A stretch of DNA of 64,000 bases from the human T2T-CHM13v2.0 reference genome, Homo sapiens: the NCBI GenBank assembly GCA_009914755.4, contig CP068257.2, positions 6,080,001 to 6,144,000 of the forward strand. Direction: 5' to 3'. The position numbers and the translations under genes were made by a program. Each line of letters opens with the position of its first letter. Within the stretch, counting starts at the first letter, position 1. Below the pieces are notes generated by a model that was not told where the DNA came from, did no database searches, and saw nothing but the letters and a program-made list of their open reading frames with translations. Of the stretch, positions 1,973 through 58,690 are shown in pieces.

Positions 1973-2290
1973 CCGGGCTGGGTGGAGACCAATGTCCCGG
2001 GAAACACCGGGCTTGCCCAGCATCCAGGCCTGACACCCCTCTGGCGGCTCGCCTCCTCTGCACCTCCACGCCACCGTCGCCGGCCCGCCTGTACACCTGC
2101 AGCCTCCCAGCTGCCACCATGGAGCTCCTGGCGGCGGAACTCAGACCTCTAGCTGTCTTTGCCGGCCTCCTGGCTAGACCTCTGATCATTGCGCACATCT
2201 GCTGACATGCAAGGGAGCCAGCTGGCCTCTCTGTGCCCTTGTCTGTCCGTGAAATTCCAGAGGAGGCTCTCCCAACACTTTCTGACACTC
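1973..2290 (+). other. Isolated 3' tail of a D4Z4-like unit in plus orientation, joined head-on to the truncated minus copy A
   Basis: Matches the 3' tails of the plus copies. An example is gggctgggtggagacc...gctgccaccatggagctcctggcgg...ctttagtcaaagcctggagaatagttacatc, as in 8800-9160. Confidence 0.8.
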
Positions 2291-6992: not shown

Positions 6993-7145
<153 letters not shown>

Positions 7146-7163
7146 TGACCGGGTCTCACCGCG

Positions 7164-8432
<1,269 letters not shown>

Positions 8433-14520: not shown

Positions 14521-15960
<1,440 letters not shown>

Positions 15961-16689
15961 GTCGCGGGGCTGGGAGGGTGTCGGGTCGGGGCAGGGTGGT
16001 GTCTTCTCTTTCGCAGGGAATACCTTGCTGGCTATGGAGTGGCGTGTCTTCCCCCCGACCCCTTCACCGAGCTGACAGGCGTGGGATTCCTGCCTTCTAG
16101 GAATAGGCCCGGTGGGAGACTCTATAGAGCGTAGAAATGCCATTCTTTCCTGGGCATCCTGGAGATCCAAGAGCCGGCCCAGGTACCGGCAGGTGGGCCA
16201 CCTACTGCGCAAGCGCGGGTTTGAGGGCAGCCGCCTGGGCTGTGGGAGTAGCCCGGGCAGAGACCTCATACCTTTCCACCATCCCAACCCCGCCTGACCA
16301 GCCACACCCCACCCCCACACCCCAGCCCCGGAAATTGCATCCTCCCCTGGGCTGGGTGGAGAACCCCATCCCGTGAAAAAACAGGCCCGTGCAGCGTCCA
16401 GGCCTGACACCCATCTGGCGGCTCGCCTCCTCTGCCCATCCACGCCACCATCGCCTGCCTGCCGCTGCCACTGCAGCCTCCCTGCTGCCACAGTGAGTGA
16501 ATGGTGGGGGAACGCAGACCTCCAGCTCTCTTTGCCGGCCTCCTGGATAGACCTGCGCTCATTGCGCACTCTGGCTGACGTGCAAGGGAGCCCGCTGGCC
16601 TCTCTGTTCCCTTGTCCGTCCGTGAAATTCCAGCTGAGGCTATGCCAACACATTCCGACGATCTTTAGTCAAAGCCCATAGAATAGTTA

Positions 16690-27095: not shown

Positions 27096-27741
27096 TGATC
27101 AGTTCAGAGATGGGTCATGCTGACTGTTTGCTCCCGGAGCTCTGTGGGCACTCGGAAACAAGCAGCGAAGAGAGGAAGACCGGCATGGTGCCTTCGCTCT
27201 CTTGCGAGTTTCCAAACCGGCCACACTGCAGACTCCCCATGTTGCCGCACATGGGAATCCATCGTCAGGCCATCACCCCGGGGAGGCATCTTCTCTCTGG
27301 GGTCTCGCTCTCGTCTCCTACGTGGAAATGAACGTGAGCCACACGCCTGCGTGTGTGAGACTGTCCCAGCAACGGCGACACCCACATGCACTGCCTCCTT
27401 CACGGAGAGAGGGCTTGGAACACTCAAGACTCCCACGGAGGTTCAGTTTCACACTCCCCTCCACCCTCTCAGGCCGGTTTCTCCCTGCTGAAGACGCGTG
27501 GGAGCCCAGAGAGTAGCTTCCAGTTCCCGCGGGATTCCTGGCGAGGTCTGGAGATCCAGCCCCCGAAACGTGTCCCCCTCATCCCTTCCCCATCGCCCCC
27601 TTCTTCTTCGTCTCTCTGGCCCCACCACCACCATAAACACGCCCTCCCACCCCACCCCACCACCCACCGGCCGCAGGCCTCGACGCCCTGGGACCCTTCC
27701 AGGGTGGGGCAGGCTGTCCCAGGACTCACCGCCATTCTTGA

Positions 27742-29206
<1,465 letters not shown>

Positions 29207-29929
29207 CGTGGGGTTTGGACAGGATCGGGTCGTGGCAGAGCGGTGGCCTCTATTTCGGGGGGAACACCTGGCTGGCTATGGAGGGGCGTGTCTTCCCCCC
29301 GCCCCCTCCACCGGGCTGACCGGCCTAGGATTCCTGCCATATAGTTCTAGGCCCGGTGAGAGGCTCCACACAGTGGAGAACTGCCATTCTTTCCTGGGCA
29401 TACTGGGGATCGCAGAGCCGGCCCAGGTACCAGCATGTCGACTGCCTACTGCGCACACGCAGGTTTGCAGGTAGCCGCCTGGGCTGTGGGAGCAGCCCGG
29501 GCAGAGCTCTCATGCCTTTCCACCACCCAAACCCGCCTGACCACCCCCCCACCCCCACACCCCAACACTGGAAAATGGGTCCTCCCCTGGGCTAGGTGGA
29601 GACCCACGTCCCACGAAACCCTGGGAGCGTGCAGCGTCCAGGCCTGACACCCCTCTGGTGGCTCGCCTCCTCTGCGCCACTGTGCCACCGTTGTCGGCCC
29701 GCCCGTGCCCCTGGCAGCCTCCCAGCTGCCACCATGGAGCGCCTGTCGGTGGAACACAGACCTATAGCTCACTTTGCCAGTCTCCTGGATAGACCTGCGC
29801 TCATTGTGCACCCCGGCTGACGTGCAAGGGAGCCAGCTGGCCTCTCTCTGCCCTTGTCCGTCCGTGAAATTCTGGCTGAGGCTCTCCCAACACCTTCCAA
29901 CGCTCTATAGTCAAAGCCTGGAGAATAGT

Positions 29930-32900: not shown

Positions 32901-35620
32901 ACAATGCCCCTGTAGGCAGAGCATACAGAAGAGTTGCATCACCTGGGTGATAAGTGCAGAGATATGTCACAATGTCCCCTGTAGGCAAAGCCTAGGCAAG
33001 AGTTACATCACCTTTGTCATCAGATCAGGGATATGTGTAAACACACCTGTAGGCCGAGCATAGAAAACAGTTACATCACCTAGCTGATCAGTGCAGAGAT
33101 ATTTCACAATATCCCCTGTAGGCAGATACTAGACAAGAGTTGAATCACCTCGGTGATCAGTGCAGAGATATTTCACAATGCCCCCTTTGGGCAGAGGGTA
33201 GACAAGATTTACATCACATAGGTGATCAGTGCAGAAGTTTGTCAACTTTCCCTGTAGGCAGTGCTTATAAAAATGTTACATCACATAAGTGATCAGTGCA
33301 GACATATCAGAAAGCTCCTGTAGGCAGAAGTTAGATGAGTTATATCACCTGGGTGATCAGTGCAAAGGTATGTCACAAAGCCCCCTGTAGGGAAAGCCTA
33401 GACAATAGTTATATCATTTGGATGATCAGTGGAGAGGTCTCTCACAATTTCCCTGTAGGCAGAGCTTATACAACAGTTGCATCACCTGGGTGATCAGTAC
33501 GGAGATATGTCACAATGCCCCCATACGCAGATCCAAGACAAGAGTCCGTCACATGGGTGATCAGTGCAGAAATATGTCACAATGCCCCCTTAGGCAGAGC
33601 CTAGACACAAGCCCAATCACCTGGATGATCAGTGCGGATTTATGTCACACAGTCCCTTTAGGCAGATCCTAGACAAGTGTTACATCGCTTGGATGATCAG
33701 TGAAGAGATATGTCACAATGCCACTGTAGGCAGAGCCTAGACAACAGTTACATGACCTAGGTGATCAGTGCAGAGATACTTCGCAATGCGGCTGTAGGCA
33801 GAGCATTGACAAGTGGTATATCACCTGTGTGATCGTTGCAGTGATATGTCACATAACACTCTGTAGGCAGATAGAAGAGAAGAGTTATATCACCTGGGTG
33901 ATCAGTGCAGAGATATGTCACAGGACCCCTGTAGGCAGAGCCTAGACAAGAGTTATATCACCTGGGTGATCAGAGTAGTGATATGTCACGATGCCTTGTA
34001 GCCAGAGCCAAGACTAAAGTTAAAGCACCTGGGAGATCTGTGCAGACATATGTCACAATGTCCCCAGTAGGCAGAGAGCAGGCAATAGTTGGATCACCTC
34101 GGTATCAGTGCAGAGATATGTCTGAATCCCCCTGTGGGCACAGCCTAGAAAAGAGTTACATCACCTCGGTTAACAGTGTAGAGATATGTCAAAATGCCCC
34201 TGTAGGCAGAGCCTACACAAGTGTTACATCACTTAGGTGATCAGTACAGAGATATGTCACAATACCCCCTTTAAGCAGAGCCTAGACAAGAGTTACATCA
34301 CCTGGGTGATCAGTGCAGAGATATGTGACAAGGCCCCTTTAATCAGAGCCTACACAATAGTTACATCACTTGAGTGATCAGTGCAGAGATCTGTCACAAT
34401 GCCCGTTTAGGCAGAGCTTAGACCAGAGTTACATCACCTGGGTGATCAGTGCAGAGATCTGTCACAATGCCCCTATTGGCAGAGGTTAGACCAGAGTTAC
34501 ATCACCTTGGTGATCAGTGCAGAAATATGACACAATGCCGCCAGTAGGCAGATATAGACAAGAGTTACATCAACTGCGTGATCACTGCAGAGAAATGTCA
34601 CAATGCCCCTCTAGGCAGAGCCTAGACAAGAGTCCCATCACCTGGGTGATCAATGCAGAGTTATGTCACAATGCCGCCTGTTGGCAGAGCCTACACAAGG
34701 GTTACATCACCTGGGTGATCAGTGCAGAGATGTGTCAGTAGACCCCTGAAGCCAGTGCCTAGACAAGAGTTACATCACCTGGGTGATCAGTGCAGTGACA
34801 TGTCACAATGTCCCTGTAGCCATATCCTTGACAAAAGTGACATCACCTGGGTGATCAGTGTGGAGATATGTCACAATATCTCCAGTAGGCAGAGCCTAGA
34901 CAAGAGTTACGTCACCTGGGTGATCAGGGCAGTGGTATGTCACAATGCCCCCTGTAACCAGATCCCAGACAAGAGTTGCATCACCTCGGTGATCAGTGCA
35001 GTGATATGTCTCAATGACCCCACTCGGTGAAGCCTATACAAGAGTTACATCATCTCGGTGATCAGTGCAGTGATATATTAAAATGCCCCTGTAGGCAGAG
35101 CCTAGACAAGTTTTATCACCTGCGTGATCAGTGCAGAGATATCTCACAATACCCCCTGTAAGCAGAGCCTAGACAAGAGTTACATCAGCTGGGTGATCAG
35201 TGCAGGAATATGACATAAATCCCACTATAGGCAAAGCCTACACAAGTTTTACATCACCTAAGTGATCAGTGCCGAGATATGTCACAAAGCTCCTGTTGAC
35301 AGAAGTCAGATGAGGTACATCACCTGGGTGATCTGTGCGAAGGTATGTCAAAAAGCCCCCTGTAGGCAAAGCCAAGACAATAGTTACATCACTTGGGTGA
35401 TCAGTGGCGAGTTCTCTCACAATTCCCCTGTAGGCAGAGCTTACACAACAGTTACATCACCAGGGTGATCAGTGTAGAGATATGTCACAATGTCCCCTGC
35501 AGGCGGAGCATAGAGAAGAGTTTCATCACCTGGGTGATCAGTACAGAGATATGTCACAATGTCCCCTGTAGGCAAAGCCTAGACAAGTGTTACATCACAT
35601 TGTTGATCAGTTCGGAGATG
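29930..35620 (+). repeat. Beta-satellite array
   Basis: 68-69 bp monomers. Confidence 0.9.
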
Positions 35621-36250
35621 TGTCATGCTGACTGTTTGCTCCTGGAGCTCTATGGGCACCAGGAAACATGCGGGGAAGGGTGGAAGACCGGCATGGTGCC
35701 TTCGCTCTCCTTGCTAGTTTCCAAACCGGCCACACTGCAGACTCCCCATGTTGCCACTCATGGGAATCCATCGTCAGGCCATCAAGCCGGGGAGGCATCT
35801 TCTCTCGGGGGTCTCACTCTGGTCTCCTACGTGGAAATAAAAGAGAGCCACACGCCTGCGTCTGTGAGACGGTCCCGGCAACGGCGACACCAAGAGGCAC
35901 TGCCTCCTTCATGGAGAGAGGGCCTGGAGCACTCCAGACTCCCACGGAGGTTCAGTTCCACACTCCCCTCCACCCTCCCTTGCTGGTTTCTCCCTGCTGA
36001 AGACGTGTGGGAGCCCAGAGAGCAGCTTCCAGTTCCCGCGGGATTCCTGGAGAGGTCCGGAGAGCAAGCCCCCGAAACGCGCCCCCTTCACCCCTTCCCC
36101 TTCGCCCCTTTCCTCTTCCTGTCTCCGGCCCCACCACTGCCATAACCAGGCCCACCCACCGCACCCCACCGCCCCCCGGCCGCAGGCCTCGAGGCCCTGG
36201 GTACCTTCCGTGGTGGGGCGGGCTGTCCGAGGGCTTGCCGCCATGCATGA

Positions 36251-37690
<1,440 letters not shown>

Positions 37691-38419
37691 GACAAGGGAT
37701 TGGGACGGGGTCGGGTCGGGACACGGCAGTGCCCTTTCTTTCGCGGGGAACAACTGGCTGGCTATGGAGGGGCATGTCTTCACCCCGCCCCCTCCACCAG
37801 ACTGACCAGCATGGGATTCCTGCCTTCTAGGTCTAGGCCCGGTGAGAGGCTCCACACAATGGAGAACTGCCATTATTTCCTGGGCATCCCGGGGATACCA
37901 GACCCGGAACAGGTACCAGCAGTTGGGTCGCCTACTGTGCACGCGCGGGTTTGCAGGCAGCCGGCTGGGCTGCGGGAGCAGCCCGGACAGAGCTCTCATG
38001 CCTTTCTACCACCATACCCCGCCTGACGAGCCCCTCCCCACCTCCACAACACACCCCCAGAAAATGCGTCCTCTCCTGGGCTGAGTGCATACCACCGTCC
38101 CGCGAAACACCGAGCACGCACAGCGTCCAGGCCTGAAACACATTCGGCAGCTCTACTCCTCTGTGCCTCTGCGCTGCCATCGCTGGCCTACCCGTGCCCC
38201 TGCAACCTCCCAGCTGCCACCAAGGAGCGCCTGGTGGTGGAACGCAGACATCTAGCTCTCTTTGCCGGCCTCCTGGCTCGACCTGCACTCATTGCCCACC
38301 CTGGGTGACGTGCAAGGGAGCCCTCTGGCCTCTCTGTGCCCTTGTCCATCTCTGAAACTCCGGCTGAGGCTCTCCCAACACCGTCCGACGCTCTTAAGTC
38401 AAAGTCTGGAGAATAGTTA

Positions 38420-41400
38420 CATCTCCTGGATGATCAGTTCAGAAATGTGTCACAATGCCGACTCCCTGCAGAGCCTAGAGAAGATTTGCATCATTTCCGT
38501 GATCAGTGCAGAGATATATCACAATGTCCCCTGTACAAAAAGCCTGGAAATGATTTACATCACCTCGGTGATCAGTGCGTAGGTATGTCAGAAATCCCCA
38601 GTAGGCTGAACCTAGACAAGGGTTCCATCACTTAGGTGATCAGTGTAGAGATATGTGAAAATTCCCGTGTAGACAGAGCCTAGACAAGTGTTACATCACC
38701 TAGTGATCAGTGCAGGGATAAGTTGTAAAGCCTCCTGTAGGCGGAGTGTAGACAAGTGTTTCCTCCCTGGGGTGATCAGTGCAAAGTTATGTCACAAAGC
38801 CCCTATAAGCAGAACTTTGACAAGGGTTACATCACCTGTTTGATCAGTGGAAATCTACATCACAAAGCCCCCTGTAGGCAAAGCCCTGACAATTGTTGCA
38901 TCACCTGGGTGAGAAGTGGAGAGATCTGTCACAATGCCCCTGTAGGCAGAGCTTAGACAAGGGTTACATCACCTGGATGATCAGTGCAGAGATATGTCAA
39001 AACGCTACTGTAGGCTGAACCTAGGAATGAGTTACATCAACTGGGTGATCAGTGCAGAGATATGTGAGAATTCCCGTGTAGGCAGAGTCTAGACAAGTGT
39101 TACATCACCTAGGTTATCAGTGCAGGTATAAGTCATGAAGCATCCTGTAGGCAGAGCGTAGACAAGAGTTCCCTCCGCAGAGTGATCAGTGTACAGATGT
39201 GTCACAAAGCCCCTGTAGGCAGAACCTAGACAAGAGTTTCATCACTTGGTTGATCAGTTCAGAGACGTGTCACAATGTCCATGTAGGCAGATCTAAGACA
39301 AGAGTCCATCACCTGGGTGATCAGTGCAGAGATATGTACCAATGTCCCCTGTAGGCAGTGCCTAGACAAGAGTTGCATCACCTCAGAGATCAGTGCACAG
39401 ATATGTCACAAAGCCTTCTGTAGGCAAAGCCCGTACAAGGCTTACATCACCTAGGTGTTCAGTGCAGTGATATGTCACAAAAGTCCCTGTAGACAGAGCC
39501 TAGAAAGAGTTACATCACCTGGGTGATCAGTGGAGATATTTGCCACAATGCCCCCATTGACAGAGCCTAGAAAAAGACTTCCATCACCTGGTTGATCACT
39601 GCAGAGATATGTCATAAAACGCCCTTTTGGCAGAGTATAGAGAAGAGTCCCATTACCTGGGTGATCAGTGCAGAGATATTTCACAATGCCCCCTGTAGGC
39701 AGAGAGTGGACAAGAGTTACATAACCTAGGTGATCTGTGCAGAGCTATGTCAAAATGCACCTGTAGGCAGAGCCTAGATAAATGTTACATCACCTGGGTG
39801 ATCAGTGCAGAGATACGTCACAATACCCCCTGTAGGTGAAGCCTAGGCAAGAGTTACATCACCTGGGTGATCAGTGCAGAGGTATGTCACAAAGCCCCTG
39901 TAGGCAGAGCCTAGACAAGACTTACATCACCTGGGTGATCAGTGCAGAGGTATGTCACAAAGCCCCTGTAGGCAGAGCCTAGACAAGAGTTACATCACCT
40001 GGGTGATCAGTGCAGAGATATGTCACAAATACCCCTCTAGGCAGAGTATAGAGAAGAGTCCCATCACCAGGGTGATCAGTGCAGAGATATTTCACAATGC
40101 CCCCTGTAGGCAGAGAGTGAACAAGAGTTACATAACCTAGTGATCTGTGCAGAGCTATGTCAAAACGCCCCTGTAGGCAGAGCCTAGATAAATGTTAGAT
40201 CAACTGAGTGATCAGTGCAGAGATACGCCACAATACCCCTGAAGGTGGAGCCTAGACAAGAGTTACATCACCTGGGTGATCAGTGCAGAAATATGTCACA
40301 AATCCCATGTAGGCCGAGCCTAGACAAGAGTTATATCTCCTGGGTGATCAGTGCAAAGACATGTCAGAAAGCCCCCTGTAGACAAATCCCAGAAAATTGT
40401 TGCAACACCAGCGTGATCAGTGGAGATATCTGTCACAATTCCCCTTTAGGAGGAGCTTAGACAAGCGTTCCATCACATAAGTGATCAGTGCAGAGATATG
40501 TCACTATGGCCCCATAGGCAGGTCCAAGACAAGACTCCATCACGTGGGTGATCAGTGCAGAAATATGCCACAATGCCGCCAGTAGGCAGATATAGACAAG
40601 AGTTTCATCACCTGCGTGATCACTGCAGAGTTATGTCACAATGCCCCTGTAGGCAGAACCTAGACAAGAGTCCCATCACCTGGGTGATCAGTGCAGAGTT
40701 ATGTCAAAATGCCGCCTTTTGGCAGAGCCTAGACAATGGTTACATCACCTGGGTGATCAGTGCAGAGATGTGTCACAAACCCCCTGTAGCCAGAGTCTAG
40801 ACAAGTGTTACATCAACTGTGTGATCAGTGCAGTGACATGTCACAATATCCCTGTAGCCATATCCTTGACAAAAGTGACAACACCTGGGTGACCAGTGAG
40901 GAGATATGTCACAATGTCTCCAGTAGTCAGAGCCTAGACAAGAGTTACATCACCTGGATGATCAGGCAGCGATATGTCACAATGCCCCCTGTAAGCATAT
41001 CCCAGACAAGAGTTGCATCACCTCGGTGATCAGTGCAGACATATGTCTCAATGCCCCCTGTCGGCGATGCCTATACAAGAGTAACATCATCACGGTGATC
41101 AATGCAGTGATATGTGAAAATGCCTCTGTAGGCAGAGCTTATACAAGAGCTACATCACCTGGGTGATCAGTGCAGAGATATCTCACAATACCCCCTGTAA
41201 GCAGAGCCTAGAAAAGAGTTACATCACCAGGGTGATCAGTGCAGAGATATGTCATAAATCCCACTGTAGGCAAAGCCTAGACAAATTTTACAGCACCTCA
41301 GCGATCAGTGCAGAGATATGTCCCAATATCCCTCTAGGCAGAGCTTAGAGAAGAGTCACATCTCCTGGGTGATCAGTGCAGAGATAAGTCACAATGCCCC

Positions 41401-44400: not shown

Positions 44401-45430
44401 CAGAGCATAGACAAGAGTTATATCACCTGGGTGATCAGTGCAGTGATATGTCACAATGCCGTGTAGCCAGATCATAGACTAAAGTTACAGCACATGGGAG
44501 ATCAGTGCAGAGATATGTCACAATGTCCCCAGTAGGCAGTGACCAGGCAATGTCCACCTGTGGGCACAGCCTAGACAAGAGATACGTCACCTCGGTTAAC
44601 AGTGCAGAGATATGTCAAAAAGCCCCTGTAGGCAGATCCTACACTACTGTTTCATCACTTAGGTGATCAGTGCAGAGATATGTCACAATACTCCCTGTAA
44701 ATAGAGCCTAGACAAGAGTTACATCACCTGGGTCATCAGTGCAGAGATCTGTCACAATGCCCCTTTCGGGAGAGCTTAGACCAGGGTTACATCACCTGGG
44801 TGATCAGTGCAGAGATATGTCACAATGCCCCCATAGGCAAATCCAAGACAGTAGTCCATCACGTGGGTGATCAGGGCAGACATGTGTGACAATGTCCCCA
44901 GTAAGCAAAGCCTAGAGAAGGGACACATCACCTGGGTGATCAGTGCAGAGATATTTCACAATGCCCCTGCTGGCAGAGCGTAAACAAGAGTTACATCACG
45001 TAGATCATCAGTGCAGAGATATGTCACAAGGCCCCCTATACGCAGAGCCTGGACAAGTGTTACATCACCTCAGTGATCAATGCAGTGATATGTCACTATA
45101 CCCCGTAGGCAGAGCATAGTCAAGCGTTACATCATCTGGGTGATCAGTGCAGAGATATGTCACACAGCCCCCATACACAGAGCCTAGAAGAGTCCCAACA
45201 CCTGGGTCATCAGTGCAGAAATATGTCACAATGCCCCCGTAGGCAGATCCAACACAACAGTTACATCACCTGGGTGATCAGTGTAGAGATATGTCACAGT
45301 GGCCCCATAGGCAGAACCTTGACAAAAGTCCCATCACCTGGGTGATCAGCGCAGAGATATGTCGCAAAGCCCCTGTAGGCAGAGCCTAGAGAAGAGTTAT
45401 ATAACTTTGTTGATCAGTTCGGAGATATGT
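38420..45430 (+). repeat. Beta-satellite array
   Basis: 68-69 bp monomers. Near-identical adjacent monomers at 39865-40000. Confidence 0.9.
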
Positions 45431-46048
45431 CATGGTGACTGTTTGCTCCAGGAGATCTTCAGTCACCCTGAAACATGCACGGAAGGTTGGAAGTCCAGCA
45501 TGGTGCAATTGCTCTCCTTGCCAGTTTCCAAACTGGCCACACTGCAGACTCCCCATGTTGCCGCAAACGGGAATCCTTCATCAGACTATCACGCCGTGGA
45601 GGCATCTTATCTCTGGGGTCTCGCTGTGGTCTCCTACGTGGAAATGAATGAAAGCCACAGGCCTGCCTGTGTGAGACTGTCTCCGCACACACAGGCACTG
45701 CCTCATTCACGGAGAGAGGGCCTGGAACACTCCAGACTCCCATGGAGGTTCAGTTCCACACTCCCCTCCAACCTCCCAGGCCGGTTTCTCCCTGCTGAAG
45801 AAGCGTGGGAGCCCAGAGAGCAGCTTCCATTTCCCGTGGGATTCCTAGAGAGGTCCAGAAAGCCAGCCCCCGAAACGCGCCCCCCTCACCACTTCCTCCT
45901 CGCCCCCTTCCTCTTCGTCTCTCCGGCACCACCACCGCCATCACAACGCCCTCTCCCCACACCCCACCACCACCAGGCCGCAGGCCTCGACCACCTGGGA
46001 CCCTTCCGGTGTGGGGCGGTCTGTCCCAGGTCTCACCCCCATTCATGA

Positions 46049-47454
<1,406 letters not shown>

Positions 47455-48194
47455 GATGCGGTGTTGGGACGGGGTCGGGTCGGGGCAGGGCGGTGGCCTC
47501 TCTTTCGCAGGGAACACCTGGCTGGCTATGGAGGGGCGTGTCTTCCCCCCACCCCCTCCACCGGGCTGACAGGCCTGGGATTCCTGCATTCTAGGACTAG
47601 GCCAGGTGAGAGACTCCACACAGCAGAGAACTGCCATTCTTTCCTGGGCATCCCAGGGATCCCAGAGCCGGCCCAGGTACCAACAGGTGGGGCGCCTACT
47701 GTGCATGCGAGGGTTTGCTGGCAGCCGCCTGAGCTGTGGGAGCAGCCCGGGCAGAGCCCTCATGCCTTTCCACCACCCCACTAAGGCCTGACCACCCCCA
47801 CCCCACCCCCACACCCACCCCCGGAAATTGTGTCCTCCCCTGGGCTGGGTGGAGACCCCCGTCCTGCGAAACACCGGGCCAGCGAAGCATCCAGGCCTGA
47901 CACCCCTCTGGCGGCTCGCCTCCTCTGTGCCTCTATGCCACCGTCGCCAGCCCGCCCCTACCCCTGCAACCTCCCAGCTGCCACCATGGAGTGCCTGGCG
48001 GCCGAACGCAGACCTCTAGCCGTCTTTGCCGGCCTCCTGGCTAGACCTGTGCTCATTGCGCACCCTGGCTGACCTGCAAGGGAGACCGCTGGCCTCTCTG
48101 TGCCCTTGTGCGTCCATGAAATTCCGGCTGAGGCTCTCCCAACACCTTCTGAAGCTCTTTAGTCAAAGCCTGGAGAATTTTTACATCTCCTGGA

Positions 48195-48670
48195 TGATCG
48201 GTTCAGAAATATGTCACAATGCCCCCTCCCTGAGGAGCCTAGAGAAGATTTGCATCATTTGGTTGATCAGTGCAGAGATATATCACAATGTCCCTTGTAC
48301 AAAAATGCTGGAAATGATTTACATCACCTCGGTGATCAGTGCATAGGTATGTCAGAAATACCCAATAGGCTGAACCTAGAAAAGGGTTACATCACTTAGG
48401 TGATCAGTGTAGAGATTTATGAAAATTCCCGTGGAGACAGAGCCTAGAGAAGTGTTACATCACCTAGTGATCAGTGCAGGGATATGTTGTAAAGCCTCCT
48501 GTAGGCAGAGTGTAGACAAGTGTTTCCTCCCTGGGGGGATCAGTGCAGAGTTATGTCACAAAGCCCCTGTAAGCAGAACCTTGTCAAGGGTTACATCACC
48601 TGTTTGATCAGTGGAAATGTATATCACAAACCCCCTGTAGGCAAAGTGCAGACAATTGTTACATCACCCT
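48195..48670 (+). repeat. Beta-satellite: the shared downstream flank of the D4Z4-like units, plus orientation
   Basis: Same monomer variants as those that follow every plus copy, for example gtttgatcagtggaaatgtatatcacaaa. Confidence 0.85.
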
Positions 48671-50284
48671 GTAGGGGGGTATTGTGACATATCTCTGCAC
48701 TGATCGCTCAGTTGATCTAATATTTATCTAGGCTCTGCCTACAGGGGCGTTTTGACATAGCTCTGCACAGATCACTAGGTTATGTAACTCTTGTTCACTC
48801 TCTGCCTACAGGGGGCATTGTGAAATATCTCTGCACTGATCACCCAGGTGATGGGACTCTTCTCTATACTGTGCCTTGAGGGGTATTTGTGACATATCTC
48901 TGCACTGATCACCCAGGTGATGTAACATTTATCTAGGCTCTGCCTACAGGGGCGTTTTGACATAGCTCTGCACGGATCACCTAGGTTATGTAACTCTTGT
49001 CCACTCTCTGCCTACAGGGGGCATTGTGAAATATCTCTGCACTGATCACCCAGGTGATGGGACTCTTCTCTATACTCTGCCAAAAGGGCGATTTGTGACA
49101 TATCTCTGCACTGATCGCCCAGGTGATGGAAGTATTTTCTAGGCTCTGTCTATGGGGGCATTGTGTCAAATATCTCCACTGATCACCCAGGTGATGTAAC
49201 TCTTTCTAGGCTCTGTCTACAGGGATTTTTGTGACATATCACTGCACTGAACACCTAGGTGATGTAAGCCTTGTACGGGCTTTGCCTACAGAAGGCTTTG
49301 TGACATATCTGTGCACTGATCTCTGAGGTGATGCAACTCTTGTCTAGGCACTGCCTACAGGGGCTATTGGTACATATCTCTGCTCTGATCACCCAGGTGA
49401 TAGACTCTTGTCTTAGATCTGCCTACATGGACATTGTGACACATCTCTGAACTGATCAACCAAGTGATGAAACTATTGTCTAGTCTCTGCCTACAGGGGC
49501 TTTGTGACACATCTCTGCACTGATCACCCTTGGGAAGGAACTATTGTCTACGCTCTGCCTACAGGAGGCTTCATGACTTATACCTGCCCTGATAACCTAG
49601 GTGATGTAACAATTGTCTAGACTCTGCCTACACGGGAATTCTCACATATCTCTGCACTGATCACCCAGTTGATGTAACTCATTCCTAGGTTCAGCCTACA
49701 GGAGCGTTTTGACATATCTCTGCACTGATCACCCAGACGTTGTAACCCTTGTCTAAGCTCTGCCTACAGGGGCATTGTGACAGATCTCTCCACTGCTCAC
49801 CCAGGTGATGTAACAATTGTCTGGGCTTTGCCTACTGGGGGTTTGTGATATACATTTCCACTGATCAAACAGGTGATGTAACCCTTGTCAAGGTTCTGCT
49901 TACAGAGGCTTTGTGACATAACTCTGCACTGATCACCCCAGGGAGGAAACACTTTTCTACACTCTGCCTACAGGAGACTTTACAACTTATCCCTGCACTG
50001 ATCACTAGGTGATGTAACACTTGTCTAGGTTCTGTCTACACGGGAATTTTCACATATCTCTACACTGATCACCTAAGTGATTTAACCCTTGTCCATGTTC
50101 AGCTTACTGGGGATTTCTCACATACGTATGCACTGATCACCGAGGTGATGTAAATCATTTCCAGGCTTTTTGTACAGGGGACATTGTGATATATCTCTGC
50201 ACTGATCACCCAAATGATGCAAATCTTCTCTAGGCTCCGCAGGGAGGAGGCCTTGTGACACATTTCTGAACCGATCATCCAGGA

Positions 50285-50285
<1 letters not shown>
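48670..50285 (-). repeat. Beta-satellite, minus orientation, after the orientation switch
   Basis: Monomers are now ctgcactgatcacc... There is a ~205-bp (3-monomer) tandem duplication at 48745-49155. Confidence 0.9.
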
Positions 50286-53094
<2,809 letters not shown>

Positions 53095-53095
<1 letters not shown>

Positions 53096-55420
53096 ATCAA
53101 AAGTGATGTAACTCTTGTCTAGACTCTGCCTACAGGGGCTTTGTGACATATCTCTGCACTGGTCACCCAGGGGATGGGACTTATGTCTAGGCTCTGCCTA
53201 TGGGAGCATTGTGACATATCTCTACACTGATCACCCAGGTGATGTAACTGTTGTGGTGGATCTGCCTATGGGGCATAGTGACATATCACTGCAATGATCA
53301 CCGAGGTGATGTAACTCTTATCCAGGTTCTACCTATAGGGGGCCTTGTGACATATATCTGCACTGATCCCATAGGTTATGTAACACTTGCTTACGCTCTG
53401 CCAGCAGGGGCATTGTGAAATATGTCAGCACTGATCACCCAGGTGATGGGACTCTTCTCTAGGCTCTGCCTACTGGGGGCATTGTCAAATATTTCTGCAC
53501 TAATAACCCAGGTAACGGACTCTTGCCTTGGATTTGCCTATGGGGGCATTGTGACATATCTCTGCACTGATCACCCAGGTGATGTAACTCTGGTCTAAGC
53601 TTTGCCTAAAGGGGCATTGTGACAGATCTCTGCACTGATCACTCAGGTGATGTAACTATTGTCTAGGCTCTGCTTAAAGGGGGCTTGTAACATATCTCTG
53701 CACTGATCACCCAGGTGATGTAACACTTGCCTGGGCTCTGCTTCCAGGGGGTGTTGTGACATATCTCTGCACTGATAACCAAAGTGATGTAACACTTGTG
53801 TAGGCTCTGCCTACAGGGGCATTTTGACATATCTCTGCACTGTTAACCTTGGTGATGTAACCCTTGTCTACGCTGTGACCACAGGGGGATTGAGACATAT
53901 CTCTGCACTGATCCCGAGGTGATCCAACTCTTGCCTGGTCTCTGCCTACTGGGGAAATTGTGGCATATCTCTGCACTGATCTCCCAGGTGCTGTAACTTT
54001 AGTCTAGGCTCTGGCTACACGGCATTGTGACATATCACTGCACTGATCACCCAGGTGATATAACTCTTGTCTAGGCTCTGCCTACAGGGGGCTTGTGACA
54101 TATCTTTGCATTGATCACCCAGATGATATAACTCTTCTCTAGGATGTGCCTACAGGGTGCTTTGTGACATATCCCTGCAATGATCACCCAGGTGATATAC
54201 CACTTGTCAAGGCTCTGCCTACAGGGGCATTGTGATGTATCTCTGCACTGATCACCTAGGTCATGTAACTCTTGTTTAGGCTTTACCTACAGGGGCGTTG
54301 TGACATATCTCTGCAGTGATCACGCAGGTGATGTAACTCTTGTCTATATCTGCCTACTGGCGGCATTGTGACATATTTCTGCATTGATCACATAGGTGAT
54401 GCAATCTTGTCTAAGATCTGACTATGGGAGAATAGTGAAATATTTCTGCACTGATCACTCATGTTATGTAACGCTTGTCTGAGCTGCGCCTAAAGGGGAA
54501 TTGTGACAGATATCTCCACTGATTACCCAGGTGAAGTAACAGTTTTCTGTGATTTGTCTACAGGGGGCTTTGTGACATGTCTTTGCTCTGATCACCCAGG
54601 AGATGTAACTCTTGTCTAGGATCGGCCTACAGGGGCTTTGTGTCATGTTTCTGCACTGATCACCCTGGGGAGGGAACTCTTGTCTACTCTCTGCCTACAG
54701 GAGGCTCTTTGACTTATACCTGCACTGATAACCTAGGTGATGTAACACTTGTCTAGGCACTGCCTACACGGGAATTCTCACATATCTCTGCACTGATCAC
54801 ACAGGTGATGTAACTCCTGTCTAGGTTCAGCCTATAGGAGTGTTTTGACATATCTCTGCACTGATCACCCAGGTGATGTAACCCTTCTCTAAGCTCTGCC
54901 TACAGGGTCATTGTGACAAATCTCTCCACTGCTAACCCAGGTGATGTAACAATTGTCTGGGCTATGCCTACTGGGGGTTTGTGATATACATTTACACTGA
55001 TCAAACAGGTGATGTAACCCTTGTCAAGGTTCTGTCTACAGGGGCTTTGTGACATATCTCTGCACTGATCACCCCAGGGAGGAAACACTTGTCTACACTC
55101 TGCCTAAAGGAGGCTTTACGACTTATCCCTTCACTGATCACTAGGTGATGTAACACTTGTCAAGGCTCTGTCTACACGGGAATTTTCACATATCTCTGCC
55201 CTGATCACCTAAGTGATGTTACCCTTGGCTAGGTTCAGGTTACTGGGGATTTCTGACATACCTATGCACTGATCACCGAGGTGATGTAAATCATTTCCAG
55301 GTTTTTTGTATAGGGGACATTGGGATATATCTCTGCACTGATCACCCAAATGATGCAAATCTTTTCTACCCTCCACAGGGAGGGGGCATTGTGACATATT
55401 TCTGAACAGATCATCCAGGA
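53095..55420 (-). repeat. Beta-satellite, minus orientation
   Basis: 68-69 bp monomers. Confidence 0.9.
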
Positions 55421-56325
55421 GATGTAACTATTCTCCAGGCTTTGACTAAAGAGCGTCGGAAGGTGTTGGGAGAGCCTCAGCCAGAATTTCACGGACGGAC
55501 AAGGGTACAGAGAGGCCAGCGGGTTCCATTGCAGGTCAGCCGGGGATTGCAATGAGTGCACCTCTAGACAGGCGTCCAGCAAACAGAGCTAGAGGTCTGC
55601 GTTCCCCCGCCGGGCGCTCCATGGTTTCAGCTGGGAGGCTGCAGGGGCACGGGCGGGCCGGCGACGGTGGCTTGGAGGCACAGAGGAGGCGAGCCGCTGG
55701 AAGGGTGTCTGGCCTGGACGCTGGGCGCCCCGGTGTTTCACGGGACTGGGGTCTCCACCCAGCCCAGGGAAGAACGCATTTTCCGGGGGTGGGTAGTGAG
55801 GGTGGGGAAGGTGTGCAAAGGCGGGGGTGGGGTGGAGGAAAGGCATGAGAGCTTTGCCTGGGCTGCTCCCACAGCCCAGGCGGCTGTCCCCAAACCCGAA
55901 CGTGTGCAGTAGGTAGCCCACCTGCTGGTACCTAGGCCGGCTCTGGGATCCCCTGGATTCCCAGGAAAGAATGACAGTTCTCTGCTGTGTGGAGTCTCTC
56001 ACCGGGCCTAGAACTACAAGACAGGAATCCCAGGCCGGTCAGCCCAGTGGTCGTGGCGGGGGGAAGACACTCCCCTCCATAGAGAGCCAGGTGTTCCCCG
56101 CGAAAGAGAGGCCACCGCCCTGCCCCGACCCGACCTCCTCCCAACCACGCGTCCTAAAGCTCCTCCAGCATAGCCCGGTATTACTCCACGCTGAGGAGTG
56201 CTTCCACCGAGGCGGCCTCTTCCAAGGCCTCCAGCTCCCCCAGGGCCTCCGGTTCTAGGAAATGTTGCACCTGCTGCAGAAACTCCGGGCTCGCCAGTAG
56301 CTCATCCAGCAGCAGTGCATCCTGC
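55420..56325 (-). pseudogene. DUX4L: Truncated D4Z4-like unit H: the 3' tail plus about 55 codons of the DUX4-like C-terminus
   Basis: Tail colinear with G and I. The stop (cta) is at 56153-56155. The coding remnant gives ...[17 protein letters not shown]...EEWS.. (the reverse complement of ...ctccagctcccccagggcctccggttctaggaaatgttgcacctgctgcagaaactccgggctcgccag...). Homology ends after ctcatccagcagcag, near 56313. Confidence 0.75.
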
Positions 56326-58690
56326 AGTGATCCTGCAGTGCAACCTCCAGTGATCACGCAGGTGATGTAACTCTTGTCTATATCTGCCTACTGGCAGCAT
56401 TGTGGCATATTTCTGCACTGATCACCCAGGTGATGGACTCTTTTCTTGGATCTGCCTATGGGGGCATAGTGAATTATCTCTGCACTGAAGATCACCCGGG
56501 TTACGTAACTCTTGTCTAGGCTCTGCCTATGGTGGCATTGTGACTTACCTCTGCATTGATCACCCAGGAGATGAGACTCTTGTCTAAGCTCTGCCTAGAG
56601 GGACATTGGGACATATCACTGCTCTGATCGCTGAGGTGATGTAAAACTTGTCTAGGCTTTGCCTACAGGTGGCTTTGTGACATACCTTTGCACTGATCAC
56701 CCAGGTGATGTAACTCATCTACCTTCTGCCTACAGGAGCATTGTGACATATCTCTGCACTGATCAGTTAGGTGATGTAACACCTTTATAAGCACTGCCTG
56801 CAGGGAATTTTGACAAATCTCTGCACTGATCACCTAGGTGTTGTAACTCTTATCTACCCTCTGCCCAAAGGGGGCATTGTGAAATATCTCTGCACTGATC
56901 ACCCAGGTGATTCAACTCTTGACTAGAATCTGCCTACAAGGGGTATTTTGAAATATCTCTGCACTGATCAACTAGGTGATGTAACTGTTGTCTAGGCTCT
57001 GCCTACAGGGGCGTTTTCACATATCCCTGAACTGATGACTTAGGTGATGTAACTCTTGCCAAGGCTTTGCCTACAGGGGACATTGTGACATTTCTCTGCA
57101 CTAATCATCCAGGTGATGCAACTCTTCTCTATGCTCTGCCTACATGGGACATTGTGACATATCTCTGCCCTGATCACCCAGGTGATGTAACTCTTTTCTA
57201 GTCTCTGCCTACAGAGTGCGTTGTGACATCACTCTGCAGGAATCACCCAGGTTATGCAACGCTTGTCTAGGCTCTGCCTATGGGGGCATTGGGACTTATA
57301 TCTGCACGGATCACCCGTTTTATGTAACTCTTGTCTAGGCTCTGCCAATGGTGGCATTGTGACTTATCTCTGCACTGATCACCGAGGAGATGTGACTATT
57401 GACTAAGCTCTGAATAGAGGTACATTGGGACATATCTCTGCACTGATCGCTGAGGTGATATAAAACTTGTCTAGGCTTTGCCTATGGTTTGATTTATGAC
57501 ATATCTCTGCACTGATCACCCAGGTGATGTAACTCTTGTCTAGGCTCTCCTTACAGGGGGTATTGTGAGATATCTCTGCATTGATCACCCAGGTGATGTA
57601 ACTCTTGTCTAGGCTCTGTCTACAGGGATTTTTGTGTCATATCACTGCACTGATCACCTAGGTGAGGTAAGCCTTGTATGGGCTTTGACTACAAAAGGCT
57701 ATGTGACATATCTTTGAACCGATCTCTGAGGTGATGCAACTCTTGTCTAGGCGCTGCCTACACGGGACATTGGTACATTTCTCTGCACTTTTCACCCAGG
57801 TGGTGGACCCTTGTCTTAGATCTGCCTACATGGACATTGTGACACATCTCTGAACTGATCAACCAAGTGATGAAACTCTTGTCTAGGCTCTGTCTACATG
57901 GGCTTTGTGACACATCTCTGCACTGGTCATCCTGGGGAGGGAACTTTTGTCTATGCTTTGCCTACAGGAGGCTTTATGACTTATACCTGCACTGATAACC
58001 TAGCTGATGTAACACTTGTCTAGGCTCTGCCTACATGGGACTTCTCACATATCTCTGCACTGATCACCCAGGTGATGTAACTCCTGTCTAGGTTCAGACT
58101 ACAGGAGGGTTTTGACATATCTCTACACTGATCACCCAGGTGATGTAACCCTTGTGTAAGCTCTGCCTACAGGGTCATTTTGACCTATCTCTCCACTGCT
58201 GATCCAGGTGATGGAACAATTGTATGGGCTTTGCCTACAGGGGGCTTTGTGATATATATTTCCACTGATCAAACAGCCGATGGAACCTTTTTCAAGGTTT
58301 TGCTTACAGGGGCTTTGTGACATATCTCTGTACTGATCACCCCAGAGAGGAAACACTTGTCTACACTCTGCCTATAGGAGGTTTTACGACTTATCCCTGC
58401 ACTGATCACTAGGTGATGTAACACTTTTCTAGGTTCTGTCTACACGGGAATTTTCATGTATCTCTACACTGATCAGCTAAGTATTCTGACCCTTGTCTAG
58501 GTTCAGTCTACTGGGGATTTCTGATATACCTATGCACTGATCACCGAGGTGATGTAAATCATTTCCAGGCTTTTTGTACAGCAGACTTTGTGATGTATCT
58601 CTGTACTGATCACCCAAATGATGCAAATCTTCTCTAGGCTCTGCAGGGAGGGGTCATTGTGACATAATTCTGAACTGATCATCCAGTAGA
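56325..58690 (-). repeat. Beta-satellite, minus orientation
   Basis: 68-69 bp monomers. About an 850-bp internal periodicity of variant monomers. Confidence 0.85.

What the first reader, a model, noticed from the sequence alone, without database searches (positions are those of the whole stretch)
48640..48700. Second orientation switch, inside beta-satellite, at a palindromic cctgtagg/cctacagg core (tail-to-tail fold-back)
Plus-oriented satellite reads ...gttacatcaccctgtagg. It continues as gggggtattgtgacatatctctgcactgatc, the reverse complement of the normal continuation. The join sits on the 8-bp self-complementary core cctgtagg, which occurs in every monomer. Downstream, the minus-oriented units G, H and I follow. 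Units F (plus) and G (minus) therefore face each other 3' end to 3' end, about 2.1 kb apart. The arms are asymmetric: about 480 bp on the plus side and about 1.6 kb on the minus side. That pattern is the signature of a fold-back (hairpin) inversion mediated by a short palindrome.
Basis: seen in the sequence. Interest (0 to 1): 0.55.

Follow-up and report, generated by a model that had tools for sequence, protein, structure and literature searches.

The report
Old inversion breakpoint in beta-satellite
The 68-bp beta-satellite array really does flip strand here, between two decayed D4Z4/DUX4-like units, but it is an old, non-functional rearrangement scar of a kind already counted by the hundred in complete human genomes, and nothing shows that a palindrome hairpin made it.

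Summary
The strand switch is real and sharp. Plus-oriented beta-satellite ends at 48668 and minus-oriented beta-satellite starts at 48676. It is one of only two switches in the window.

The GC-rich "units" are about 2.75-2.9 kb pseudo-D4Z4 elements carrying decayed DUX4-like double-homeobox frames. The window is therefore a beta-satellite/LSau (D4Z4-like) composite array.

The junction joins position 518 of unit F's conserved 3' flank to position about 1646 of unit G's inverted 3' flank (about 1853 in sister copy E). Seven nucleotides, CTGTAGG, lie between the arms, and neither arm's orthologues predict them.

- CCTGTAGG is not self-complementary. Its reverse complement is CCTACAGG, so only 6 of 8 positions are palindromic.
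- The arms are not mirror images. They are 76.6% identical in mirror register, against a background of 75.2 ± 1.3%.

F and G are not sister copies; the copies form a near-star phylogeny.

Best reading: an ancient non-homologous join, by end joining or template switching, with a short templated filler. A fold-back duplication with a 1.1 kb (or 8.4 kb) loop is not excluded.

[quoted passage not shown] Interest is low.

The parts
45300..48150 (+). Unit F: a pseudo-D4Z4 (LSau/D4Z4-like) element with decayed, frameshifted DUX4-like coding remnants at about 46220-47454. The non-satellite core is about 45425-48179.
   Evidence: BLAST between copies gives 84-85% identity. tblastn with DUX4 maps the coding remnants. 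The orientation scan shows a non-satellite gap here. The sister copy E matches PDB DUX4 5z6z at E = 5.7e-77 and has two Pfam homeodomains.
48151..48668 (+). Plus arm: the first 518 bp of the conserved beta-satellite 3' flank of unit F. It ends at ...GTTACATCACC.
   Evidence: It is 89.7-93.4% identical to the 3' flank of every other unit, against at most 77% for out-of-register satellite. All of these alignments stop at 48668. The orthologues continue with TGGGTGAGCAG.
48663..48668 (+). ATCACC: the left half of the monomer's internal quasi-palindrome ATCACC|TG|GGTGAT. The plus arm ends exactly at its centre.
   Evidence: Read directly from the sequence. The palindrome occurs 119 + 37 times exactly in the window. 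With only one case, this may be coincidence.
48669..48675 (+). Seven-nucleotide junction filler CTGTAGG. Together with C48668 it forms the plus-oriented core CCTGTAGG. Neither arm's orthologues predict it.
   Evidence: After ATCACC the plus arm should read TGGGTGAG. The minus arm should read ...CACCT(T/A)CAGGGG here. The 9-mer CCCTGTAGG (48667-48675) repeats 48633-48641, 34 nt upstream. The string ATCACCCTGTAGG is unique in the window, and half-monomer core spacing is rare, 3 of about 330 spacings.
48676..50321 (-). Minus arm: 1646 bp of the conserved beta-satellite 3' flank of unit G, inverted.
   Evidence: It is collinear with E's flank 38378-40039 at 93.2%. Its last 251 bp (48676-48926) are 97.2% identical to E 39989-40239, which means G lacks one 205-bp three-monomer unit. 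G and E share the derived variant TTAGATCAACTGAG.
48669..49803 (-). The 1135-nt 'spacer': the part of G's flank (positions 519-1646), plus the filler, that has no inverted counterpart on the F side.
   Evidence: the repeat finder pair I1 has arms 47902-48668 and 49804-50570, 90% complementary, with 1135 nt between them.
50322..53208 (-). Unit G: an inverted pseudo-D4Z4 element with a frameshifted DUX4-like frame at 51020-52282.
38387..40239 (+). 3' flank of unit E: the intact reference copy against which both breakpoints were mapped. The plus-arm break corresponds to E 38905 and the minus-arm break to E 40239.
1975..1977 (.). The other strand switch in the window, given for comparison. It lies inside a D4Z4-like unit and has a clean 3-nt GGG microhomology. 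It joins unit coordinate 46622 (minus, F numbering) to 47842 (plus).
   Evidence: Its phases do not match those of the 48668 junction, so the two switches are not the two ends of one simple inversion.

Best explanation
This is a fixed, old, non-functional rearrangement scar: an inversion-type breakpoint inside a beta-satellite/pseudo-D4Z4 (LSau-beta) composite array.

Shown:
- The array consists of diverged macro-repeats. Each has about 1.5 kb of conserved 5' beta-satellite, a D4Z4-like unit of 2.75-2.9 kb, and at least 1.6-1.85 kb of conserved 3' beta-satellite, plus variable satellite in between.
- The junction joins position 518 of one copy's 3' flank (F, plus) to position about 1646 of another copy's 3' flank (G, minus; about 1853 in sister copy E).
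- The two breakpoints lie at different monomer phases.
- A 7-nt plus-oriented copy of the monomer core (CTGTAGG) sits between the arms.

Inferred:
- The join was made by a homology-independent process. This could be end joining of two breaks (classical or polymerase-theta type) or a replicative template switch (MMBIR/FoSTeS).
- The 7 nt are a short templated filler copied from a neighbouring monomer.
- The quasi-palindromic core is a by-product of the repair, not the hinge of a hairpin.
- The partner junction, if there was one, lies outside the window.
For: Position and sharpness.

Breakpoint mapping:
- Every orthologue of the plus arm aligns at 90-93% and stops at 48668.
- The minus arm is collinear with E's flank, and its last 251 bp are 97.2% identical to E 39989-40239.

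Not homologous recombination and not a mirror fold-back:
- Mirror-register identity of 76.6% equals the background of 75.2 ± 1.3%; the orthologous register gives 93.4%.
- The breakpoints differ in monomer phase and in macro-repeat position.

Filler:
- Both arms' orthologues predict other bases at 48669-48675.
- The 9-mer CCCTGTAGG is present 34 nt upstream.
- The string ATCACCCTGTAGG occurs only here.

Short homology available at the join: CACC/TCACC is present both in the plus arm and in the expected minus arm. The window's other switch has a clean 3-nt microhomology.

Age and lack of sisterhood:
- In the 518-bp flank F has 18 private changes and G has 12, with only 1-2 shared.
- The copies are star-like. 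Flanks are 88-94% identical, unit bodies 84-86%, and non-CpG distances are 8.8-10.6%.

Context: D4Z4-like units with DUX4 homology.

Literature:
- LSAU-BETA composites in centromere-transition regions are 80-95% identical within an array.
- Pseudo-D4Z4 units about 0.6 kb shorter than D4Z4 lie in beta-satellite on the acrocentrics.
Against: - The local geometry is an inverted repeat whose left arm ends exactly at the junction, followed by a 1135-nt single-copy spacer. That is also the geometry of fold-back inverted duplications, which have spacers of 766-70,466 bp and either 2-8 bp of microhomology or insertions.
- F's nearest relative in the 518-bp flank is G, by a small margin (93.4% against 92.5%; 96% over the last 100 bp).
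- The minus arm begins at a point whose closest relative, E 40239, lies 8.4 kb upstream on the same molecule in the opposite orientation.
- No reciprocal partner breakpoint is visible in the window.
- The sub-mechanism (end joining or template switch) cannot be decided from one sequence.
- No reads were available to confirm the assembly.
Confidence: 0.8

Rival explanations
1. Fold-back or template-switch inverted duplication with a kilobase-scale loop (the 'disomic spacer' type). A broken or stalled 3' end paired through a few bases with the same molecule further back and copied it in reverse. There are two versions. In (i), F plus its 518-bp flank is an inverted copy of G plus its flank, with a 1.1 kb loop. 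In (ii), the G side was copied from E's flank starting at E 40239, with an 8.4 kb loop that contains F.
For: - Inverted repeat I1 has a 1135-nt spacer, and its left arm ends at the junction.
- Published fold-back junctions have spacers of 766-70,466 bp, with 2-8 bp of microhomology or short insertions.
- F's closest 3'-flank relative is G (93.4%; 96% over the last 100 bp).
- G's flank is closest to E (93-97%, with a shared derived variant).
- The non-CpG tree of unit bodies pairs E with G at 75% bootstrap.
- The window's other switch has the same geometry, with a 1.25 kb spacer and a 3-nt microhomology.
Against: - F and G share only 1-2 derived sites, against 12-18 private sites each.
- F's 5' flank is closest to D (92-96%), not to G.
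- G's 5' side best matches H's 5' flank and scattered array positions, not the mirror image of the E-D interval.
- The order and spacing of copies are not mirrored. E is full length but p is truncated, and the intervals are 6.8, 5.5 and 10.2 kb on one side against 2.1 and 2.3 kb on the other.
- A1 and A2 at the other switch are not sisters: 86% to each other, while A2 is 90% identical to F.
Confidence: 0.25
2. The literal first reading: a hairpin formed at the 8-bp palindrome CCTGTAGG, which is present in every monomer, and the strand turned back on itself there without a loop.
For: - A copy of the core sits exactly at the join.
- The outer CCT/AGG triplets are mutually complementary.
- Single-stranded DNA of 48620-48730 folds somewhat better than shuffled sequence (-14.8 kcal/mol, z = -2.5).
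Against: - The core is not self-complementary.
- The arms are not mirror images (76.6%, equal to background).
- The plus arm stops 33-34 nt short of its own next core, so an additional half-monomer deletion exactly at the junction would be needed. Such spacing is rare, 3 of about 330 spacings.
- The predicted stem is only the trivial pairing of oppositely oriented monomers across a 39-nt loop.
Confidence: 0.03
3. Assembly or read artefact: a chimeric join or a fold-back read.
For: No reads could be inspected. Satellite arrays are difficult to assemble.
Against: - Fold-back (missed-adapter or duplex) read artefacts give exact mirror palindromes, and these arms are not mirror images.
- Both arms differ by at least 2.8-6.6% from every other copy in the window, so accurate long reads can place them uniquely.
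- The junction carries a filler and lies at non-equivalent positions, as biological junctions do.
- Strand switches are a validated and common feature of beta-satellite arrays.
Confidence: 0.05
4. Non-allelic homologous recombination between oppositely oriented beta-satellite monomers or macro-repeats.
For: Inverted homologous copies are abundant in the region.
Against: - NAHR exchanges sequence within aligned homology and so cannot create a new strand switch.
- The two sides meet at different monomer phases (about position 31 against about 66-4) and at different macro-repeat positions (518 against about 1646/1853).
- Seven unexplained nucleotides lie between them.
Confidence: 0.02

Closest known systems
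Inversion breakpoints (strand switches) in human beta-satellite arrays, as catalogued in T2T-CHM13 (Altemose et al., bioRxiv 10.1101/2021.07.12.452052)
   Same: 68-bp beta-satellite lies on both sides, with an abrupt change of monomer strand, inside a beta-composite array interspersed with LSau/D4Z4-like elements. The paper reports over 200 such breakpoints in the beta-satellite arrays of chr1 and the acrocentrics together with chr9 HSat3B5.
   Different: Nothing tested differs. The catalogue gives counts rather than nucleotide-level junction anatomy. I could not verify which genome or chromosome the window comes from.
LSAU-BETA composite repeats (Hoyt et al., bioRxiv 10.1101/2021.07.12.451456) and pseudo-D4Z4 structures on acrocentric chromosomes (PMC13558733)
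   Same: - D4Z4-like units with DUX4-like frames are embedded in beta-satellite.
- Intra-array identity is 84-94% here, against 80-95% reported for centromere-transition arrays.
- The units are about 0.5-0.6 kb shorter than the 3.3-kb D4Z4, non-contiguous, and carry interrupted ORFs.
   Different: Those papers describe the repeat family, not this junction. Chromosomal location was not testable here.
Fold-back inverted duplications with a disomic spacer (Hermetz et al. 2014, PMC3907307)
   Same: Inverted arms are separated by a kilobase-scale single-copy spacer: 1135 nt here, against 766-70,466 bp reported. The junction has a short insertion or a few bases of microhomology.
   Different: - The arms here are not demonstrable sister copies.
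- The neighbouring copies are not in mirror order.
- The event is ancient and internal to a satellite array, not a recent terminal rearrangement with a deletion.
Palindrome- or cruciform-mediated rearrangements such as PATRR translocations (named from general knowledge, not tested here)
   Same: The breakpoints coincide with centres of (quasi-)palindromic motifs: ATCACC|TG|GGTGAT on the plus arm and CCT|GT|AGG at the join.
   Different: The motifs here are only 8-14 nt long and imperfect, far below the hundreds of base pairs of AT-rich palindrome that form cruciforms. With one junction, the coincidence is not statistically meaningful.

Membership tests
Beta-satellite strand-switch (inversion breakpoint) in a beta-composite array | 68-bp beta-satellite monomers on both sides of the point | tested here: met
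   TRF finds period-68 arrays at 48319-48668 and 48682-50312. Consensus scoring agrees.
Beta-satellite strand-switch (inversion breakpoint) in a beta-composite array | Abrupt change of monomer orientation | tested here: met
   The change from plus to minus occurs between 48668 and 48676. The strand-diagnostic 8-mers change over at the same place.
Beta-satellite strand-switch (inversion breakpoint) in a beta-composite array | Array interspersed with LSau/D4Z4-like elements | tested here: met
   There are ten full or partial GC-rich unit copies with DUX4 homology. PDB 5z6z matches at E = 5.7e-77 and Pfam finds two homeodomains.
Beta-satellite strand-switch (inversion breakpoint) in a beta-composite array | Location on chr1 or an acrocentric short arm of a human or ape genome | not testable with these tools
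   No human genome collection is available. The junction 20- and 25-mers are absent from the metagenome and prokaryote collections.
Fold-back (hairpin) inversion at a short palindrome, no loop | A self-complementary sequence at the turn | tested here: not met
   The reverse complement of CCTGTAGG is CCTACAGG, so only 6 of 8 positions are palindromic.
Fold-back (hairpin) inversion at a short palindrome, no loop | Arms that are reverse complements of each other, in mirror register from the junction | tested here: not met
   Mirror-register identity is 76.6%, against a background of 75.2 ± 1.3% (maximum 78.2%). The orthologous register gives 93.4%.
Fold-back inverted duplication with spacer (Hermetz type) | Inverted arms separated by a single-copy spacer of about 0.8-70 kb | tested here: met
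   Pair I1 has arms 47902-48668 and 49804-50570 with a 1135-nt spacer. Published spacers range from 766 to 70,466 bp.
Fold-back inverted duplication with spacer (Hermetz type) | The two arms are copies of one another (sister sequences at the time of the event) | tested here: inconclusive
   F-G is F's best pair, but only marginally (93.4% against 92.5%). F and G share 1-2 derived sites against 12-18 private ones each. The phylogeny is star-like. F's 5' flank is closest to D.
Fold-back inverted duplication with spacer (Hermetz type) | Sequence beyond the arms continues in mirror order | tested here: not met
   G's 5' side matches H's 5' flank and scattered positions, not the mirror image of F's or E's left side. 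The inter-unit intervals and the truncated copy p are not mirrored.
Fold-back inverted duplication with spacer (Hermetz type) | Inverted microhomology of 2-8 bp, or an insertion, at the junction | tested here: met
   There is a 7-nt insertion, CTGTAGG. CACC/TCACC is shared by the plus arm and the expected minus arm.
Microhomology-mediated or alternative end joining, or MMBIR, with templated insertion | Breakpoints at non-homologous positions | tested here: met
   Flank position 518 is joined to position about 1646/1853, at different monomer phases.
Microhomology-mediated or alternative end joining, or MMBIR, with templated insertion | Short insertion identical to nearby sequence | tested here: inconclusive
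   CCCTGTAGG (48667-48675) equals 48633-48641. The motif is the most common 8-mer of the satellite, so identity to a neighbour is weak evidence of templating.
Microhomology-mediated or alternative end joining, or MMBIR, with templated insertion | Dependence on polymerase theta or on replication restart | not testable with these tools
   This is an enzymatic history and cannot be read from one sequence.
NAHR between inverted repeats | Exchange point inside aligned homology, at the same phase on both sides | tested here: not met
   The phases and macro-repeat positions differ, and 7 unexplained nucleotides lie between the arms.

The most novel reading that the evidence does not exclude
Both strand switches in this window might be single-junction inverted duplications made by fold-back or replicative template switching with kilobase loops. 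The spacers would be 1.14 and 1.25 kb, or 8.4 kb if E was the template, with 3-5 nt of microhomology or a short filler. The break points might preferentially fall at the centres of the monomer's two quasi-palindromes, ATCACC|TG|GGTGAT and CCT|GT|AGG. If that pattern recurred at the other beta-satellite strand switches, it would identify a sequence-encoded fragility that drives orientation mosaicism in beta-satellite/D4Z4-like arrays.
Probability: 0.12. Interest if true: 0.35.

Novelty: already known. Interest (0 to 1): 0.12.

Why it matters
It matters little on its own. It is one nucleotide-resolved example of the strand switches already counted in beta-satellite composite arrays.

Its modest value is methodological. 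The conserved, position-specific flanks of the D4Z4-like units allow both breakpoints of a satellite inversion to be mapped to the base against intact sister copies. The same approach, applied to all beta-satellite strand switches in T2T and pangenome assemblies, could show whether they arise by end joining, by template switching or by fold-back, and whether they prefer particular monomer phases.

These arrays lie next to rDNA and next to the recombining acrocentric short arms. Orientation mosaics there could influence ectopic exchange, but this window offers no evidence on that point.

Tried and rejected
1. Mirror-palindrome test. I aligned the left arm to the reverse complement of the right arm from the junction outward, over 68-500 bp. 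Identity was at background level, so this was rejected.
2. One simple two-break inversion spanning 1976-48668. Undoing it does not restore continuity at either end: unit coordinate 1323 would abut flank position 518, and unit coordinate 2543 would abut flank position 1646. Rejected.
3. F as a recent inverted copy of G. Identity matrices, derived-site counts, non-CpG trees and 5'-flank profiles gave a near-star phylogeny with no F-G clade.
4. G side as a mirror copy of the E-D side. The 3' flank and, weakly, the unit body support this, but everything beyond the unit does not.
5. Clean microhomology join at CACC/TCACC followed by point mutation. This needs about 3 inserted bases plus 2-3 substitutions within 8 nt, which is less parsimonious than a filler.
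6. A pre-existing half-monomer (33-34 nt) deletion in the last plus monomer, which would place the join on the core. Such spacing is rare and the string is unique, so this is not favoured. It is not excluded.
7. Independent copies of the junction in public collections. The 25-mer and a 20-mer were absent from the metagenome and prokaryotic genome contigs. Only tiny contaminant beta-satellite contigs were found with the consensus. These collections do not hold primate genomes, so the negative result says little.
8. Pfam and PDB searches with ORFs of unit F alone found nothing. The better preserved unit E gave the DUX4/homeodomain matches.
9. A hairpin energy argument. The fold is only modestly better than shuffled sequence, and it reflects the trivial pairing of opposed monomers.
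Full report
**What the window is.** Tandem Repeats Finder shows long arrays of a 68-bp repeat whose consensus is the primate beta satellite (...GATCAGTGCAGAGATATGTCACAATGCCCC TGTAGGCAGAGCCTAGACAAGAGTTACATCACCTGGGT...). GC-rich blocks interrupt the arrays every few kilobases. BLAST of one block against the window finds ten full or partial copies: A1 263-1977 (-), A2 1975-2433 (+), B 6236-9280, C 13766-16806, D 26985-30048, E 35501-38536 and F 45300-48300 (all +), then G 53204-50172, p 56315-55308 and H 61619-58576 (all -).

The blocks carry a decayed double-homeobox reading frame. tblastn with human DUX4, recalled from memory, gives 76-80% amino-acid identity over residues 1-424 in several copies. 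Independently of memory, the N-terminal 159 codons of unit E match PDB DUX4 (5z6z) at E = 5.7e-77, and Pfam finds two homeodomains. No copy has an intact frame.

The window is therefore a beta-satellite/LSau (D4Z4-like) composite array. This is the "beta-composite" class of Altemose et al. and the LSAU-BETA composite of Hoyt et al., which is 80-95% identical within arrays in centromere-transition regions. It also matches the "pseudo-D4Z4" units, about 0.6 kb shorter than D4Z4 and embedded in beta-satellite on acrocentric chromosomes.

**The observation.** Scoring 40-nt windows against the monomer consensus in both orientations shows plus orientation up to 48640-48679 and minus orientation from 48660-48699. 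A scan of the whole window finds only two switches: one inside a D4Z4-like unit near 1975 and this one inside beta-satellite. The quoted sequence is correct. Units F and G face each other 3' end to 3' end, and the arm lengths are 518 and 1646 bp.

Two details are wrong. First, CCTGTAGG is not self-complementary. Its reverse complement is CCTACAGG, and the two forms are strand markers, with 132 copies of one left of the junction and 34 of the other, almost all right of it. Second, the motif is exact in only about a quarter of the roughly 610 monomers.

**Mapping the two breakpoints.** The beta-satellite next to each D4Z4-like unit is not generic. The first 518 bp 3' of unit F (48151-48668) align to the 3' flank of every other unit at 89.7-93.4%, whereas out-of-register satellite gives at most 77%. 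All of these alignments end at the same base, 48668. In all eight full-length orthologues the sequence continues ...ATCACC|TGGGTGAGCAG; in F it continues CTGTAGGGGGGTATTG.

The right arm, read in G's orientation, is collinear with E's flank from the unit outward, at 93.2% over 1659 bp. Identity per 100 bp is 92-99% for 1.4 kb and then appears to drop. The drop arises because G lacks one 205-bp three-monomer unit. The last 251 bp (48676-48926) are 97.2% identical to E 39989-40239 and share a distinctive derived variant, TTAGATCAACTGAG.

The junction therefore joins flank position 518 (plus) to flank position 1646 of G, equivalent to position 1853 of E (minus). E and paralogous positions predict that the minus arm should read ...(T/C)CACCT(A/T)CAGGGG(G)TATTGTG in window orientation. 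The observed sequence is ...ATCACCCTGTAGGGGGGTATTGTG. Neither arm explains the seven bases CTGTAGG at 48669-48675. Together with the two preceding Cs they repeat the 9-mer at 48633-48641, half a monomer upstream. The string ATCACCCTGTAGG occurs nowhere else, and half-monomer core spacing is rare, 3 of about 330 spacings.

**Testing the fold-back reading.** A hairpin at the core predicts arms that are reverse complements in mirror register. Over 68-500 bp the mirror identity is 74.5-78.1% (76.6% over 500 bp). This cannot be distinguished from the left arm's identity to random plus-oriented satellite (75.2 ± 1.3%, maximum 78.2%). The orthologous register gives 93.4%. The repeat finder describes the same structure differently: arms 47902-48668 and 49804-50570, 90% complementary, with 1135 nt between them.

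That geometry is the hallmark of fold-back inverted duplications with a loop. Hermetz et al. report spacers of 766-70,466 bp, with 2-8 bp of microhomology or insertions at the junction. I therefore tested whether the arms are sister copies.
- In the 518-bp flank, F has 18 private derived changes, G has 12 and E has 16. Only 1-2 are shared by F and G, 1-2 by G and E, and 2 by all three.
- Pairwise identities are star-like, 88-94%.
- Unit bodies are 84-86% identical for every pair. At non-CpG sites the distances are 8.8-10.6%, with weak E-G (75%) and C-H (77%) bootstrap pairs.
- F's 5' flank is closest to D (92-96% over 1.6 kb), while G's is closest to B and H.
- Beyond unit G, the best matches are H's 5' flank and scattered positions, not a mirror image of the left side.

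Neither version of the fold-back model gets more than partial support. This holds for F copied from G with a 1.1 kb loop, and for the G side copied from E's flank at 40239 with an 8.4 kb loop. Neither version is excluded.

**Other mechanisms.**
- NAHR cannot create a strand switch. It is also contradicted by the different phases and positions of the two breakpoints and by the 7-nt filler.
- The two switches in the window are not the two ends of one simple inversion, because undoing it restores continuity at neither end.
- The other switch, at 1975-1977, is a clean join with a 3-nt GGG microhomology between unit coordinates 46622 (-) and 47842 (+). It too leaves a spacer of about 1.25 kb.
- A read or assembly fold-back artefact would give an exact mirror palindrome, which this is not. 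Both arms differ by at least 2.8-6.6% from all other copies, so they can be placed uniquely. Without reads this is an argument, not a proof.

**Most likely history.** *Shown:* this is a non-homologous junction between two diverged macro-repeat copies in opposite orientation, at non-equivalent positions, with a 7-nt plus-oriented core copy between them.

*Inferred:* it arose by end joining of two breaks or by a replicative template switch, with a short templated filler. The quasi-palindromic core is a product of the repair, not a hinge. The event is old, or at least the arms are not recent copies of one another. Each arm carries 2.3-3.5% private substitutions since the copies separated, which at primate neutral rates suggests tens of millions of years. 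That figure is rough, rests on my own estimate and does not date the junction itself. The feature has no function.

**Comparison with what is known, and novelty.** Strand switches in beta-satellite arrays are documented. [quoted passage not shown] This junction meets every testable criterion of that class. The individual junction anatomy (518 | CTGTAGG | 1646/1853) is probably not described anywhere, but it adds no new kind of feature.

One small curiosity remains. The plus arm ends exactly at the centre of the monomer's internal quasi-palindrome ATCACC|TG|GGTGAT, and the filler is the other quasi-palindrome. With a single case and a post-hoc choice of motifs, this may well be chance. It could be tested across all beta-satellite breakpoints.

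**Limits.** No primate genome, read set or second haplotype was available. The junction 20- and 25-mers were absent from the metagenome and prokaryotic collections. Those collections contain beta-satellite only as tiny contaminant contigs, so the negative result carries little weight.

Noticed in passing
window 1975-1977 (context 263-2433): The window's other strand switch lies inside a D4Z4-like unit. It is a clean join with a 3-nt GGG microhomology between unit coordinate 46622 (minus, F numbering) and 47842 (plus). It leaves a spacer of about 1.25 kb, the same geometry as at 48668. The inverted arms A1 and A2 are only 86% identical to each other, while A2 is 90% identical to F.
   Followed up: partly
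window 36422-37690 (+), unit E: The DUX4-like reading frame of unit E has a single in-frame stop (codon 35) in 424 codons. It keeps both homeodomains and the C-terminal ...[11 protein letters not shown] motif. Unit C has six stops, and F and G are frameshifted. For a copy whose DNA is about 15% diverged from its neighbours, this frame is unusually well preserved.
   Followed up: partly
window 55308-56361 (-), copy p: This D4Z4-like copy is truncated at its 5' end, so only the last 1 kb or so remains. It ends within the DUX4 C-terminal coding region and abuts beta-satellite through a 23-bp mini-repeat present twice (56312-56361).
   Followed up: no
window 48676-49131 versus 39579-40239: The 3' flanks carry a three-monomer (205 bp) higher-order periodicity. 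G lacks one 205-bp unit relative to E. G and E alone share a copy with the derived variant TTAGATCAACTGAG in place of TTACATCACCTGGG.
   Followed up: yes
window-wide, unit bodies versus flanks: Unit bodies are uniformly 84-86% identical for all pairs, while their beta-satellite flanks range from 88 to 97%. The units have GC 0.65 and CpG observed/expected 0.51, against 0.15 in the satellite. The near-constant unit distances probably reflect saturated CpG decay on top of a star-like radiation. Weak cross-orientation pairs appear at non-CpG sites: E(+)-G(-) at 75% and C(+)-H(-) at 77% bootstrap.
   Followed up: partly
window 33400-35500 (5' flank of unit E): B, C, D, F, G and H share a conserved 5' beta-satellite flank of about 1.4-1.6 kb. 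E has lost it beyond about 200 bp, where identity falls to the background of 74-82%.
   Followed up: no
beta-satellite monomer; for example 48663-48668, 4223-4326 and 53550-53725: The monomer contains two quasi-palindromes, ATCACC|TG|GGTGAT and CCT|GT|AGG. TRF reports local 33-bp (half-monomer) periodicity at 4223-4326 and 53550-53725. The core at the junction lies exactly 34 nt after the previous core.
   Followed up: partly
loci L001-L017 (genome contigs): A 26-nt beta-satellite consensus string occurs in 17 very short (272-2029 bp) contigs of bacterial and archaeal assemblies. Most contig names that record coverage show it below 1x. This is almost certainly human DNA contamination of those assemblies.
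   Followed up: no
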